A stretch of DNA of 64,000 bases from Candidatus Omnitrophota bacterium (GTDB taxonomy: Bacteria; Omnitrophota; Gorgyraeia; Gorgyraeales; Gorgyraeaceae). The translations under genes were made by a program, and so were the position numbers. The stretch covers positions 112,015-176,014 of the forward strand of contig JBHPFI010000001.1 of the NCBI GenBank assembly GCA_042572045.1, read 5' to 3'. Below, piece after piece: positions 3,824-5,498 of the stretch (positions are counted from its first letter, which is position 1; the number at the start of each line of letters is the position of its first letter). The notes under the pieces are model-generated. The model ran no database searches. It was given only the letters and a program-made list of their open reading frames with translations, and was not told the origin of the DNA.

Positions 3824-4729
3824 ATGAAAGATAAAAGATTTTATTTTATTTTGATATTCAGTATAGTGATTTGTCTTTTTTGCGGTGGTTTCTGTCTAGG
3901 CTTTGCTGAAGAAGAGCCTTCTGAGCTAATCCCTGATTGGTTGAAGCGCACGAATTTCGGCGTTGAAGTAGAAACCGATCAGAAGCCGCGTGTTTACTTA
4001 GAGACTGTCCAGCCATTGTATCAGGATATAGATAGCCAGAACACGGTTTTTATTCACCCGAGATATTCATTGCAGAGCGAGGAGAGTGCCTATAACCTTG
4101 GCTTGGGCTACAGAAAGCTATCGCATGATAATAGTGTTTTATTAGGAACCAACACTTACTTTGATTTCGAAGATGATGATCAACACTATAGGATAGGCGT
4201 TGGATTTGAAGCCTTTATCAATCAGATAGAATTGAGGACAAATACTTATATAGGACTTTCTCCGAGAAGATTGATAGAAGAGACCTCAGCCACTAGAGTA
4301 TACGAAAAGGCAGTGGATGGCATTGACGGAGAGATAGGGTTGCCCCTTCCTTATATGAACTGGATAAAGGTTTACGGTGGCGGTTATTGGTATAATTATG
4401 AAAAATTTAGCAATAAGGAAGGCTGGAGGCTAAGGACCGAGCTCACTCCTTTTAAATATGGCATAATAAATTTGTCAGTATATGATGACAATAAAGGCGA
4501 TCCCGAGGTCAGAGTAGATGGGAGGGTGACTATACCAATAGGCCCTCCTTATGAAAAAGACAGAGGAAAGGTATGGTGCATGGGTTTTTCAGAAGAGGCC
4601 TATCTGGAAAAGGCTGACCACAGCGACAAAGTCTTAAAGAGGGTTGAGAGACAATACAGCATAGAAGTAGAAAGGTGGTCAGAGAATAAAACTACCGGCG
4701 TAACCGTTGAGATAAGGCGTGGGGATTAA
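3824..4729 (+). CDS. Inverse-autotransporter (intimin/invasin-type) beta-barrel domain protein with no passenger domain
   Basis: N-terminal signal/TM segment. The pattern YNLGLGYRKL..LLGTNTYFDFE..HYRIGVGFEAF..ELRTNTYIGLS..AVDGIDGEIGLPLPY matches my recollection of the IAT_beta family. The 301 aa cover the barrel only. Confidence 0.6.
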   Translation: MKDKRFYFILIFSIVICLFCGGFCLGFAEEEPSELIPDWLKRTNFGVEVETDQKPRVYLETVQPLYQDIDSQNTVFIHPRYSLQSEESAYNLGLGYRKLSHDNSVLLGTNTYFDFEDDDQHYRIGVGFEAFINQIELRTNTYIGLSPRRLIEETSATRVYEKAVDGIDGEIGLPLPYMNWIKVYGGGYWYNYEKFSNKEGWRLRTELTPFKYGIINLSVYDDNKGDPEVRVDGRVTIPIGPPYEKDRGKVWCMGFSEEAYLEKADHSDKVLKRVERQYSIEVERWSENKTTGVTVEIRRGD

Positions 4730-4733
4730 CAAA

Positions 4734-5498
4734 ATGAAAAAGTGCATAGCTTTGGTAATCGGGTTATTTTTAGGCATGTTTTTTGTTTCTCATTGCTATG
4801 CTGCCGGAAATGCCGATAAGTATGAAGTGACTATTTTAAAGATTGAATTTAAAGAGACAAACGGTACGTGGCTTACCGTTTCCGAGCCAAACCAGACAGT
4901 GGATATTGCCAATGTGATATCAGGGGCCACTGCAGCTTCTCTGGTCGGCAGTATTCCAGTGGGATCATATATCAATTTCAAGCTTGTGTTATCCGAGACT
5001 ATAACTTTTTCAGGTGTTGATGACAGTCCTGCTGATCTTAGCCTCGGGTATACGACTGTAGATGGAGGCGGGGTGACAATGACAGGGGATAATAGTGCTG
5101 CAGCTTCTACAGAGACGTGGGATACGCCCCCGGACACAGATTTAACTGATGGTCTTCCTGACGCAACCATGACGGAAACTGGTGAGACTTGTGCTCCTGG
5201 TATCGGAGTCCCAGGAGATATTACAGCTACTTTAAATTTAGATGCAGAAGATGCGGATAATTATATAGAGATTAGCGGCAGGACTGATTTGACTGTGGCT
5301 AACGCAATAACCGTAACCGAGAACTCAACTACCAGCATATCTTTTGATTTCGATACACAGGGAACAGTAATGTGGACCGACGACGGTGATGGGAATGTAA
5401 TAATCTTTTTGCCTCCTCAAGAAGGCACAGAATTAATAATAACTGTGGACGGGACCCCGACGACTATCCAAGAAGCGAATATGAAGATAGATTTCTAA
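4734..5498 (+). CDS. Secreted beta-sandwich protein (DUF4382-like), translationally coupled to the barrel gene
   Basis: ATG lies 4 nt after the upstream stop. Signal peptide MKKCIALVIGLFLGMFFVSHCYA. The pattern YEVTILKIEFKETNGTWLTV...VDIANV...IPVGSYINFKLVL resembles DUF4382. The track ORF begins at GTG 4719. Confidence 0.5.
   Translation: MKKCIALVIGLFLGMFFVSHCYAAGNADKYEVTILKIEFKETNGTWLTVSEPNQTVDIANVISGATAASLVGSIPVGSYINFKLVLSETITFSGVDDSPADLSLGYTTVDGGGVTMTGDNSAAASTETWDTPPDTDLTDGLPDATMTETGETCAPGIGVPGDITATLNLDAEDADNYIEISGRTDLTVANAITVTENSTTSISFDFDTQGTVMWTDDGDGNVIIFLPPQEGTELIITVDGTPTTIQEANMKIDF

What the first reader, a model, noticed from the sequence alone, without database searches (positions are those of the whole stretch)
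3824..5498. Barrel-only inverse-autotransporter-like protein coupled to a separately encoded secreted beta-sandwich protein
Seen in sequence: the 301-aa product carries the repeated G(L/V)G(Y/F) / N(T)Y / DG.D.E..LP pattern that I associate with the intimin/invasin beta-domain, and it ends right after the barrel. The next gene starts 4 nt later. It encodes a signal-peptide protein with a DUF4382-like beta-sandwich N-terminus and a Thr/Asp/Gly-rich C-terminal half.

Established knowledge: in intimin and invasin the passenger is fused C-terminally to the barrel and exported through it.

Inference: this may be a split, two-partner version of type Ve secretion in which the passenger is a separate polypeptide. 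Alternatively the barrel may act as a standalone porin or anchor.
Basis: partly seen in the sequence, partly recalled or inferred. Interest (0 to 1): 0.55.

Follow-up and report, generated by a model that had tools for sequence, protein, structure and literature searches.

The report
Passenger-less inverse-autotransporter barrel with secreted partner
A two-gene cassette in an Omnitrophota genome encodes an intimin/invasin-type outer-membrane barrel with no adhesin attached, followed by a secreted, acidic all-beta protein; the pairing holds in 40 of 41 related genomes, so it is probably a minimal "two-partner" relative of the Salmonella ZirT/ZirS secretion system.

Summary
Gene A (3824..4729, 301 aa) scores 78 bits against IAT_beta. 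Its AlphaFold model (pLDDT 86) matches the invasin and intimin barrels (TM 0.77 and 0.73). It has no passenger.

Gene B starts 4 nt after A's stop (4734..5498, 254 aa). It has a type-I signal peptide and is a divergent DUF4382 protein, very acidic and rich in Thr, Asp and Gly.

In 41 evaluable barrel-only loci, mostly Omnitrophota but also Thermodesulfobacteriota, Elusimicrobia and Polaromonas, 40 have a B homologue as the very next gene. The one exception carries an IS insertion. No third gene is conserved.

The two subfamily members with a covalently fused C-terminal domain lack B. Both genes are under purifying selection. A's C-terminal tail is its most constrained part.

Most likely A is the dedicated outer-membrane exporter and/or anchor of B, as ZirT is for ZirS. 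Whether B actually crosses the membrane through or with A is untested here.

The "split type Ve" idea already has precedent in ZirTSU and SinH/SinI. This is therefore a new variant: a barrel stripped of any passenger, paired with a DUF4382-type partner. It is not a new kind of system.

The parts
3786..3813 (+). Sigma-70-like promoter candidate (TTGACT-16 nt-TATACT, 10 of 12 matches). It ends 10 nt before A's ATG, which would give a very short or absent leader.
   Evidence: This is a consensus match only, so the evidence is weak. The region has 13 such matches against 7.4 expected by chance.
3824..4729 (+). Gene A: a passenger-less inverse-autotransporter (type Ve) beta-domain protein, 301 aa.
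   Evidence: ORF. IAT_beta 78.4 bits. AF2 pLDDT 86.2, pTM 0.80. Foldseek hits invasin 4e1t (E 1e-12, TM 0.77) and intimin 4e1s (TM 0.73). Exact match to an NCBI protein annotated 'inverse autotransporter beta domain-containing protein [Candidatus Omnitrophota bacterium]'. dN/dS 0.11 against L001.
3824..3907 (+). A signal peptide (aa 1-28, MKDKRFYFILIFSIVICLFCGGFCLGFA|EEE).
   Evidence: Read from the sequence. The AF2 model shows an N-terminal helix at aa 4-26. The cleavage site is inferred by eye.
3932..4531 (+). A barrel region (aa about 37-236). It includes the invariant PxWLKR N-terminal motif and the GLGY, GVGF, NTY and DG.D.E..LP motifs.
   Evidence: Pfam match aa 38-243. Strands at aa 44-236 in the model. 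Invariant columns in alignment A1. Alignment to invasin and intimin over the central strands.
4532..4726 (+). A C-terminal tail (aa 237-301). It has a variable turn region (237-270), the invariant L271..V274-E-R276 linker motif, and terminal strands at 282-288 and 294-296. It ends ...VEIRRGD-COOH.
   Evidence: Conservation in A1. pLDDT 84-93 for aa 251-290. 119 of 120 homologues stop 0-3 residues after this strand. dN/dS 0.04, the lowest of any segment. The layout parallels the intimin helical turn, R434 linker and terminal beta-strand (PMC13078405). The equivalence is inferred and not verified at coordinate level.
4734..5498 (+). Gene B: a Sec-exported, acidic all-beta partner protein of a divergent DUF4382 clade, 254 aa.
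   Evidence: ATG lies 4 nt after A's stop. DUF4382 30.3 bits. Identical to NCBI 'DUF4382 domain-containing protein' P0121. AF2 model is all-beta, pLDDT 67.5. A homologue is the immediately downstream gene in 40 of 41 barrel-only loci. dN/dS 0.16.
4734..4802 (+). B signal peptide (aa 1-23, MKKCIALVIGLFLGMFFVSHCYA|AGNADK). It is type I, with no lipobox.
   Evidence: Read from the sequence. Only 3 of 50 barrel-linked partners have even a lipobox-like string.
5019..5261 (+). B variable insert, rich in Thr, Asp and Gly (aa about 96-176), inside the DUF4382 fold.
   Evidence: This is the region of the partner alignment richest in indels. It has low pLDDT and relaxed constraint, dN/dS 0.24.

Best explanation
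Genes A and B form a self-contained two-gene operon that encodes a minimal two-partner type Ve module.

A is inserted into the outer membrane, presumably by BAM. It forms a roughly 12-stranded intimin/invasin-type barrel. Its conserved C-terminal tail runs back through the lumen and ends as a short beta-hairpin at the extracellular mouth, at the point where a classical inverse autotransporter would continue into its first passenger domain.

B is exported to the periplasm by Sec. It then depends on A to reach the cell surface and/or to be held there. In effect it is a non-covalent passenger, as ZirS is for ZirT. The tight coupling of the genes (a 4-nt gap, with small gaps or overlaps in the relatives) suggests roughly equimolar synthesis and a 1:1 complex.

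Shown here:
- A's family, fold and lack of a passenger.
- Signal peptides on both proteins.
- Near-obligate A-to-B linkage across phyla.
- Mutual exclusivity between B and a fused C-terminal domain.
- Purifying selection on both genes.

Inferred:
- The topology of the tail, by homology with intimin and invasin.
- Surface location of B.
- A-dependence of B's export or retention.
- The stoichiometry.

B's downstream role (adhesin, surface coat or ligand binder) is unknown.
For: - **A is an inverse-autotransporter barrel.** IAT_beta scores 78 bits. The AF2 model has pLDDT 86, and its best PDB matches are the invasin and intimin beta-domains, well ahead of OMPLA and FapF.
- **A has no passenger and a fixed end point.** 119 of 120 homologues end within 3 residues of the same terminal strand.
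- **Linkage is near-obligate.** Of 41 evaluable barrel-only loci, 40 have a B homologue as the next gene, with gaps of -94 to +68 nt. The exception, L032, has an IS transposase in that slot and a frameshifted barrel.
- **Nothing else is conserved around the pair**.
- **The cassette crosses phyla.** It occurs in Omnitrophota, Thermodesulfobacteriota, Syntrophaceae, Elusimicrobia and Polaromonas.
- **Fused variants lack B.** L034 and P0112/L062 both carry a covalent C-terminal domain and have no B.
- **B looks like a secreted or surface protein.** All partners carry signal peptides. Mature B has T 16%, D+E 16.5% and K+R 2.6%, with a variable indel-rich insert.
- **Both genes are functional.** dN/dS is 0.11 for A and 0.16 for B, and A's tail is the most constrained segment at 0.04.
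- **A and B are co-inherited.** The residue at position -4 of A's tail tracks the partner class, and the A and B distance matrices correlate (Mantel r 0.32, above all 2000 permutations).
- **There is experimental precedent.** ZirS is encoded 26 bp downstream of the Int/Inv-type barrel ZirT, is Sec-dependent, and is secreted only when ZirT is present, including in E. coli K-12 (PMC2270342). The 'two-partner inverse autotransporter' concept is set out in PMC4943183.
- **The host is a diderm.** TolC-like, MacB/HlyD and DUF1302 genes lie in the same window.
Against: - No computation here shows a physical A-B contact or that B crosses the outer membrane. Complex modelling was not available.
- A 12-stranded barrel whose lumen is filled by its own linker is a poor conduit for a separate 230-residue protein, unless export happens during assembly at BAM or the plug is displaced.
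- Unlike ZirS/ZirU with ZirT, or SinI with SinH, B shares no sequence similarity with any part of A or with the fused domains of L034 and P0112.
- The reverse link is not universal. Of 7 sampled partner-family representatives with readable upstream sequence or gene calls, 3 lack an upstream barrel. An eighth, P0175 (L064), also lacks one, and with P0160 it defines a barrel-less 'AGDPS.C' clade. B-type proteins can therefore function without A.
- The tail could be aligned to the intimin linker only by overall fold coverage, not residue by residue.
- The co-variation signals are confounded by phylogeny.
Confidence: 0.5

Rival explanations
1. Anchor only. B reaches the surface by another route, for example a type II secretion system or vesicles. 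It then docks non-covalently on A's exposed, conserved C-terminal hairpin and loops. A is a surface anchor, not a translocator.
For: - A's lumen is probably plugged by its own conserved linker (PMC13078405).
- The terminal strand is extremely conserved and always at the very C-terminus, as expected for a docking element.
- Some B-family clades exist without a barrel, so B-type proteins do not intrinsically need A for export.
- Canonical tandem DUF4382 relatives are lipoproteins, meaning they are anchored by another device.
Against: - No other secretion genes are linked to the cassette.
- The cassette moves between phyla as a self-sufficient two-gene unit.
- ZirTS shows that an Int/Inv-type barrel alone is enough for partner secretion in E. 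coli (PMC2270342).
- Barrel-less B clades also lack lipoboxes, so the simple 'barrel replaces lipid anchor' picture is not borne out within the family.
Confidence: 0.2
2. Periplasmic complex. B stays in the periplasm and binds the periplasmic face of A (the N-terminal PxWLKR segment or the turn region). The pair would act as an envelope tether, a sensor, or a folding/stabilising factor for the barrel.
For: - Both proteins are Sec substrates, and nothing computed proves that B crosses the outer membrane.
- A lacks the periplasmic LysM domain of many inverse autotransporters, so a separate periplasmic partner is conceivable.
- IgSF-like beta-sandwiches often act as periplasmic chaperones (PMC4943183).
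Against: - B evolves much faster than A (mean pairwise identity 27% against 45%). It is hyper-acidic and Thr-rich with a variable insert. This is more typical of exposed proteins than of chaperones.
- A's periplasmic turn region (aa 237-270) is its least conserved part, whereas the terminal hairpin is the most conserved.
- B is absent exactly when a C-terminal domain, presumed extracellular, is fused to A.
Confidence: 0.17
3. No direct partnership. A is a standalone plugged barrel or porin, or a decayed remnant of an inverse autotransporter. B is merely co-transcribed.
For: - 'invasin_beta-only' architectures have been noted before without assigned partners (PMC4943183).
- A distant barrel-only protein (L054) has a different downstream gene.
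Against: - 40 of 41 loci conserve the adjacency across phyla while all other neighbours vary.
- Strong purifying selection acts on both genes, and especially on A's tail.
- A's C-terminal end point is uniform.
- B is mutually exclusive with fused domains.
Confidence: 0.05

Closest known systems
ZirT/ZirS(/ZirU) of Salmonella enterica, and the SinH/SinI and IatB loci: 'two-partner inverse autotransporters'
   Same: - An Int/Inv-type (IAT_beta) outer-membrane barrel gene is followed within a few nucleotides by a gene for a barrel-less protein with a Sec signal.
- The system is autonomous and small.
- The partner is an all-beta protein.
- ZirS secretion strictly requires ZirT and appears sensitive to stoichiometry (PMC2270342, PMC4943183, PMC6714894).
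   Different: - ZirT, SinH and IatB carry their own C-terminal IgSF passenger domains, and the partners resemble those domains in sequence.
- Here the barrel has no passenger at all, and the partner is a DUF4382-type protein with no similarity to the barrel protein.
- The hosts are uncultivated environmental phyla rather than enterobacteria.
- No experimental data exist for this cassette.
Classical inverse autotransporters (type Ve): intimin and invasin
   Same: - Signal peptide.
- IAT_beta barrel with the same fold (TM 0.73-0.77).
- A conserved post-barrel segment in the position of the helical turn, linker and terminal beta-strand.
   Different: - No covalently attached passenger and no LysM domain.
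- The tail sequence is specific to this subfamily.
- A separately encoded partner is conserved instead.
Two-partner secretion, type Vb (TpsB/TpsA, e.g. FhaC/FHA)
   Same: The logic is the same: an outer-membrane barrel plus a separately encoded Sec-dependent exoprotein in one operon.
   Different: - TpsB is a 16-stranded Omp85 barrel with POTRA domains, and TpsA has an N-terminal TPS domain.
- Neither feature is present here.
Canonical DUF4382 (PF14321) proteins
   Same: B and 34 of 41 partner homologues match the Pfam model. They share the N-terminal long strand and the C-terminal FDF-type strand.
   Different: - The canonical relatives found here are tandem-repeat lipoproteins of 440-680 aa with no barrel gene attached.
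- B is single-domain, has a type-I signal peptide and a large acidic insert, and is barrel-linked.
- DUF4382 has no known function. Only one paper in the library mentions it.

Membership tests
Inverse autotransporter / type Ve (Pfam IAT_beta PF11924) | N-terminal Sec signal peptide | tested here: met
   A begins MKDKRFYFILIFSIVICLFCGGFCLGFA|EEE. Judged by eye; no predictor was run.
Inverse autotransporter / type Ve (Pfam IAT_beta PF11924) | IAT_beta domain above the curated threshold | tested here: met
   78.4 bits against a cut-off of 22.3, E 9e-22. NCBIfam inverse-autotransporter models match only weakly and far below their cut-offs.
Inverse autotransporter / type Ve (Pfam IAT_beta PF11924) | 12-stranded barrel fold like intimin and invasin | tested here: met
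   The AF2 model has pLDDT 86.2. Foldseek gives 4e1t E 1.2e-12, TM 0.77, and 4e1s TM 0.73. The next best hits (OMPLA, FapF) have E about 1e-5.
Inverse autotransporter / type Ve (Pfam IAT_beta PF11924) | Post-barrel helical turn, lumen-spanning linker with a conserved Arg, and a terminal strand forming the small extracellular beta-sheet | tested here: inconclusive
   A conserved 65-aa tail carries an invariant L271/V274/R276 and strands at 282-288 and 294-296 with high pLDDT. It is the most constrained segment. HMMER does not align it to the invasin or intimin linker, and model coordinates could not be inspected.
Inverse autotransporter / type Ve (Pfam IAT_beta PF11924) | C-terminal passenger covalently fused to the barrel | tested here: not met
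   The protein ends at aa 301, directly after the terminal strand. 119 of 120 homologues do the same.
Inverse autotransporter / type Ve (Pfam IAT_beta PF11924) | Passenger export through or with the barrel (autotransport) | not testable with these tools
   Needs surface-exposure assays.
Two-partner inverse autotransporter (ZirTS-like) | An IAT-type barrel gene immediately upstream of a gene for a barrel-less protein with a Sec signal, conserved as a unit | tested here: met
   4-nt spacing. 40 of 41 loci. No other neighbour is conserved.
Two-partner inverse autotransporter (ZirTS-like) | The partner resembles the transporter's own IgSF passenger domains | tested here: not met
   A has no passenger. 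B has no HMM or hhalign similarity to the fused domains of L034 or P0112. B has no significant PDB fold match.
Two-partner inverse autotransporter (ZirTS-like) | Secretion of the partner depends on the barrel protein | not testable with these tools
   Needs co-expression and fractionation as in PMC2270342.
DUF4382 (PF14321), for gene B | Match to the Pfam model above the gathering score | tested here: met
   30.3 bits against a cut-off of 25, over aa 25-212. 34 of 41 partner homologues match at E<=0.01.
Type Vb two-partner secretion (TpsB/TpsA) | Omp85-type 16-stranded barrel with POTRA domains; TPS domain in the exoprotein | tested here: not met
   There are no POTRA, ShlB or TPS Pfam hits. 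The fold matches 12-stranded IAT barrels.

The most novel reading that the evidence does not exclude
This is a naturally 'split' inverse autotransporter. A passenger-less 12-stranded type Ve barrel exports a separately encoded, unrelated (DUF4382-type) protein fully in trans and holds it at the surface. This could happen in a single-turnover, 1:1 reaction during BAM-assisted assembly, with B pairing onto A's conserved terminal hairpin. The cassette is widespread in Omnitrophota and other environmental phyla. It may represent the ancestral, unfused state from which intimin-like adhesins arose by gene fusion.
Probability: 0.33. Interest if true: 0.72.

Novelty: new variant of a known kind. Interest (0 to 1): 0.52.

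Why it matters
Type V secretion research still debates two points. One is whether the small 12-stranded barrel is itself the conduit for the passenger. The other is whether it can act on a polypeptide it is not covalently joined to.

ZirTS is the only studied example of an inverse-autotransporter barrel acting in trans, and ZirT still carries its own passenger. The cassette described here is a cleaner natural experiment. The barrel is reduced to signal peptide, beta-domain, linker and terminal hairpin. It is obligately linked to one small secreted partner and conserved across dozens of species and several phyla.

If A-dependent surface display of B were shown, three things would follow:
- It would give a minimal two-component system for dissecting type Ve translocation and for surface-display engineering.
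- It would give DUF4382-type proteins their first functional context.
- It would bear on how intimin-like adhesins evolved, whether by fusion or by fission of barrel and cargo.

It would also identify a conserved surface structure in Omnitrophota, a phylum of ultra-small bacteria that may depend on hosts.

If instead B proves periplasmic or independent of A, the finding reduces to a conserved operon of unknown function.

Tried and rejected
- **Rosetta-stone search for natural barrel-partner fusions.** None of the 147 partner-family representatives tested (of the best 150 listed by the exhaustive HMMER search) contains a barrel. The long ones are tandem canonical DUF4382 lipoproteins. The two barrel proteins with fused C-terminal domains (L034, P0112) carry domains with no Pfam hit and no hhalign similarity to B.
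- **Fold assignment of B.** Foldseek against PDB and BFVD gave nothing significant (best E 0.18 and 0.016, TM below 0.2). Sequence and profile searches of the PDB gave only a weak FlaL2 hit driven by the signal peptide.
- **Residue-level alignment of A's tail to the intimin or invasin linker.** HMMER aligns only the central strands. The equivalence rests on position, conservation and overall fold coverage.
- **Modelling of the complex.** No A-B interface could be predicted.
- **Word-indexed profile search for B.** It returned only 13 proteins. The exhaustive search was needed (553 representatives).
- **'Barrel replaces lipid anchor' test.** Barrel-linked partners lack lipoboxes (3 of 50), but so do barrel-less members of the same family. 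Only the tandem canonical DUF4382 proteins are lipoproteins. The test does not discriminate.
- **Mirror-tree and co-variation.** Mantel r is 0.32, and the -4 residue of A's tail tracks the partner class. Both are real but confounded by shared phylogeny, so they are not used as evidence of contact.
- **Pseudogene or remnant reading of A.** Rejected because dN/dS is 0.11 and the family is large and uniform.
- **Standalone-porin reading.** Rejected as unlikely, given the conserved probable lumen plug and the obligate partner.
- **Type Vb membership.** Rejected: no POTRA, Omp85 or TPS features.
- **Second copy in the window.** None found. No assembly contributed two loci in the genome scan.
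Full report
**1. What is at the coordinates**

The window carries two co-directional ORFs. Gene A is 3824..4729, 301 aa. Gene B lies in an ORF that the ORF listing opens at a GTG (4719), but its real start is the ATG at 4734, four nucleotides after A's TAA at 4727-4729. The product is 254 aa and identical to an NCBI protein annotated 'DUF4382 domain-containing protein [Candidatus Omnitrophota bacterium]' on a 176-kb contig (P0121). 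A is identical to 'inverse autotransporter beta domain-containing protein [Candidatus Omnitrophota bacterium]' on the same contig (P0001).

The window has about 40% GC. It also encodes a TolC-like OEP, MacB/HlyD, a DUF1302 outer-membrane protein and an MMPL transporter. The host is therefore a diderm Omnitrophota bacterium.

**2.

- A scores 78.4 bits (E 9e-22, cut-off 22.3) against IAT_beta, over aa 38-243. The only solved structures it hits by sequence are the invasin and intimin beta-domains.
- With a 31-sequence alignment, AlphaFold2 gives a confident model (pLDDT 86.2, pTM 0.80) with strands from aa 44 to 236.
- Foldseek ranks invasin 4e1t (E 1.2e-12, TM 0.77 normalised to the target) and intimin 4e1s/5g26 (TM 0.73-0.75) far above the next hits, OMPLA and FapF, at E about 1e-5.
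- B scores 30.3 bits against DUF4382 (cut-off 25). Of 41 partner homologues, 34 match that model individually.
- B has a type-I signal peptide (…SHCYA|AG).
- Mature B has 16% Thr, 16.5% Asp+Glu and only 2.6% Lys+Arg.
- Its AF2 model is all-beta at moderate confidence (pLDDT 67.5). It has no significant match in the PDB or BFVD.

First, A does not stop at the last barrel strand. A 65-residue tail (aa 237-301) follows. Second, B's Thr/Asp/Gly-rich stretch is a variable insertion inside the DUF4382 fold, not a separate C-terminal half.

**3. A's tail**

Barrel-only homologues are numerous: 250 hits, nearly all 280-330 aa. Their alignment shows that the most conserved non-barrel element is the tail: …L-(D/K)-R-V-E-R-x-x-x-I-x-V-E-(K/R)-W … T-(I/V)-E-(I/V)-x-R-(G/A)-x-COOH. 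L271, V274 and R276 are invariant.

- 119 of 120 listed homologues end within 0-3 residues of the same terminal strand.
- Against the closest relative, the tail has the lowest dN/dS of any segment (0.04; the whole gene is 0.11).
- The model predicts a poorly ordered turn (aa 239-245), then well-ordered coil, then strands at 282-288 and 294-296.

In intimin the post-barrel region has three parts. First comes a periplasmic helical turn. Then comes a linker that begins at a fully conserved Arg (R434) and crosses the lumen. Last is a terminal beta-strand that joins two loops in a small extracellular sheet. Removing that strand destroys the protein (PMC13078405).

A's tail has the same order of elements and stops where intimin's D00 domain would begin. 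I could not confirm the equivalence residue by residue, because HMMER aligns only the central strands and model coordinates are not exposed. The tail topology is therefore an inference from homology.

Two subfamily members support it. In L034 (a 738-aa ORF) and P0112 (440 aa) the same tail motif runs directly into a beta-rich domain of 120-150 aa, as in a classical inverse autotransporter.

**4. The decisive test: conserved adjacency**

A scan of one genome per species returned 54 loci. I called ORFs, searched them with HMMs for A and for B, and counted.

- 42 loci, including the window, hold a barrel-only subfamily member.
- 41 of these have at least 650 nt of downstream sequence.
- 40 of those 41 have a B homologue as the very next gene on the same strand, with gaps of -94 to +68 nt.
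- The single exception, L032, has an IS-type transposase in that slot and a frameshifted barrel.

Clustering all neighbouring ORFs shows that A and B are the only genes conserved around each other. No assembly contributed two loci, and the window has no second copy.

Most of the genomes are Omnitrophota. The cassette also occurs in MAGs labelled Thermodesulfobacteriota, Syntrophaceae, Elusimicrobia and Polaromonas. It therefore behaves as a mobile, self-contained two-gene unit.

The two members with a covalently fused C-terminal domain have no B downstream. A fused domain and a separate partner are thus mutually exclusive, although n = 2.

**5. The reverse direction**

An exhaustive HMMER search with the partner profile finds 553 cluster representatives at E<=1e-3. 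Nearly all are standalone proteins of 180-260 aa with type-I signal peptides. The few long hits are tandem canonical DUF4382 lipoproteins without barrels.

I sampled genomic contexts for 7 representatives with readable upstream sequence or gene calls.

- 4 have an IAT_beta gene directly upstream, or a barrel C-tail cut by the contig edge.
- 3 do not.

An eighth representative, P0175 (L064), also lacks a barrel. It belongs to the same 'AGDPS.C' clade as P0160 and sits behind a purC-like gene end.

So A essentially always comes with B, but B-type proteins do not always come with A. That asymmetry fits A being a dedicated accessory (exporter or anchor) for one branch of a wider family of secreted proteins.

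**6. Selection and co-inheritance**

- Both genes are under purifying selection between the window and L001 (dN/dS 0.11 for A, 0.16 for B). B's insert is the most relaxed segment at 0.24.
- Across 40 pairs, A is much more conserved than B (mean identity 45% against 27%).
- The two distance matrices correlate weakly, but above all 2000 permutations (Mantel r 0.32).
- The residue at position -4 of A's tail (K/R against G/A) tracks the partner class, 'long' ending …M(K/R)IDF against 'short'.

These patterns show co-inheritance. Because of shared phylogeny they do not prove contact.

**7. Mechanism**

Established knowledge: inverse autotransporters are inserted by BAM. A hairpin of linker plus proximal passenger forms in the barrel, or in a hybrid barrel with BamA. 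Sequential folding then pulls the passenger out (PMC13078405).

In Salmonella, the Int/Inv-type barrel protein ZirT is required and sufficient, even in E. coli K-12, for secretion of ZirS. ZirS is Sec-dependent, is encoded 26 bp downstream, and its secretion appears sensitive to stoichiometry (PMC2270342). Heinz et al. generalised this to 'two-partner inverse autotransporters' (ZirTSU, SinH/SinI, Yfr4/Rat-like) and noted 'invasin_beta-only' architectures (PMC4943183; see also PMC6714894).

By analogy and from the evidence above, I consider it most likely (about 0.5) that A is the outer-membrane exporter and/or anchor of B, and that B is a non-covalent passenger displayed at the surface.

The main rivals are:
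- An anchor-only role, with B exported by another route (about 0.2).
- A periplasmic A-B complex (about 0.17).
- No direct partnership (about 0.05).

The chief weaknesses are these. No A-B interface could be modelled. A plugged 12-stranded barrel is an awkward conduit for a separate protein. B bears no resemblance to any part of A, unlike the ZirS/ZirT and SinI/SinH pairs.

**8. Comparison and novelty**

A passes the tests for an IAT_beta barrel (domain, fold, signal peptide). It fails the defining feature of an autotransporter, a covalent passenger. It is therefore a member of the barrel family but not an 'autotransporter' in the strict sense.

The pair meets the genetic definition of a ZirTS-like two-partner system but not the partner-resembles-passenger feature. 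Secretion dependence is untestable here. It is not type Vb.

Literature searches found:
- No paper linking inverse autotransporters to Omnitrophota.
- One paper pairing Omnitrophota with autotransporters, on giant genes; only its title and abstract were seen.
- Only one paper that mentions DUF4382 at all.

I therefore rate this a new variant of a known kind: a passenger-less type Ve barrel obligately paired with a DUF4382-type secreted protein, widespread in uncultivated phyla.

It is of moderate interest. It offers a minimal natural system for asking whether a type Ve barrel can act in trans. It gives DUF4382-like proteins their first functional context. It also bears on whether intimin-like adhesins arose by fusion of such pairs.

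**9. Verdict**

Coupling is shown. Trans-export is plausible and has precedent, but it is untested.
- Interest 0.52.

Noticed in passing
window 6..3740 (+): A 1244-aa ORF lies immediately upstream of the cassette. It starts at the window edge and may be truncated. Its only recognisable domain is a NUDIX fold at aa 924-1025. The other roughly 1100 residues have no Pfam or NCBIfam match.
   Followed up: partly
window 5546..5705 (+) and 5743..5988 (+): Two small membrane-protein genes, DUF6132 (52 aa, with a CxxxxC motif) and DUF6868 (81 aa), follow gene B on the same strand with no terminator-like site between them. They are not conserved next to the cassette in other genomes.
   Followed up: partly
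window 13085..24826 (-): A long co-directional cluster of two asparagine-synthase-like genes, a GT2 glycosyltransferase, three radical-SAM genes (one with a recognised B12-binding domain) and an 894-aa PMT_2-type glycosyltransferase. It looks like an envelope glycan or lipid modification locus.
   Followed up: partly
window 24881..34041 (-): A MacB-type ABC transporter, a HlyD-family adaptor and a TolC-like OEP lie in a row. They are followed by a DUF1302-like outer-membrane protein and an MMPL/RND-like transporter. This is useful evidence that the host has an outer membrane.
   Followed up: partly
window 8867..9238 (-) and 9638..10000 (-): Two paralogous small membrane proteins (123 and 120 aa, both ending …GRSEGFWRVYGVFVI.LG.VV.WSV.) flank a 122-aa ORF that appears to carry a signal peptide. 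This looks like a local duplication.
   Followed up: no
L034 5026..7242 (+); L062 4001..5323 (+) (P0112): Two subfamily members carry covalent C-terminal beta-rich domains (about 150 and 120 aa, no Pfam match) fused directly after the LDRVER tail motif. L034 also has a 300-aa Ala/Glu/Thr-rich N-terminal extension. Neither has the separate partner gene.
   Followed up: yes
L052 150..1634 (+) and 1669..5709 (+): In a MAG labelled Rhizobiaceae, a 494-aa distant IAT-like protein with a Cys-rich C-terminus is followed 35 nt later by a 1346-aa protein with Pro/Ser-rich and multi-TM regions. This may be another, unrelated two-partner arrangement.
   Followed up: no
L057 86..814 and L064 180..893: A distinct clade of the partner family (mature N-terminus AGDPS.C…) is not barrel-linked. 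Instead it overlaps the end of an upstream gene whose C-terminus (…AYKDV(F/Y)(K/R)R(L/F)TGK…) looks like that of SAICAR synthase (purC). This identification is from memory and was not tested.
   Followed up: partly
P0029: One barrel-only homologue is attributed by NCBI to a 'Thermoproteota archaeon'. An outer-membrane barrel in an archaeal MAG most probably reflects binning contamination. Several loci labelled 'Planctomycetia' or 'Planctomycetales' may likewise be mis-binned or mis-labelled Omnitrophota.
   Followed up: no
L032 703..2999: This is a decayed copy of the cassette. The barrel gene is split by a frameshift (ORFs 703..1215 and 918..1697). An ISL3-like transposase gene (1782..2999) occupies the position of the partner gene.
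   Followed up: yes
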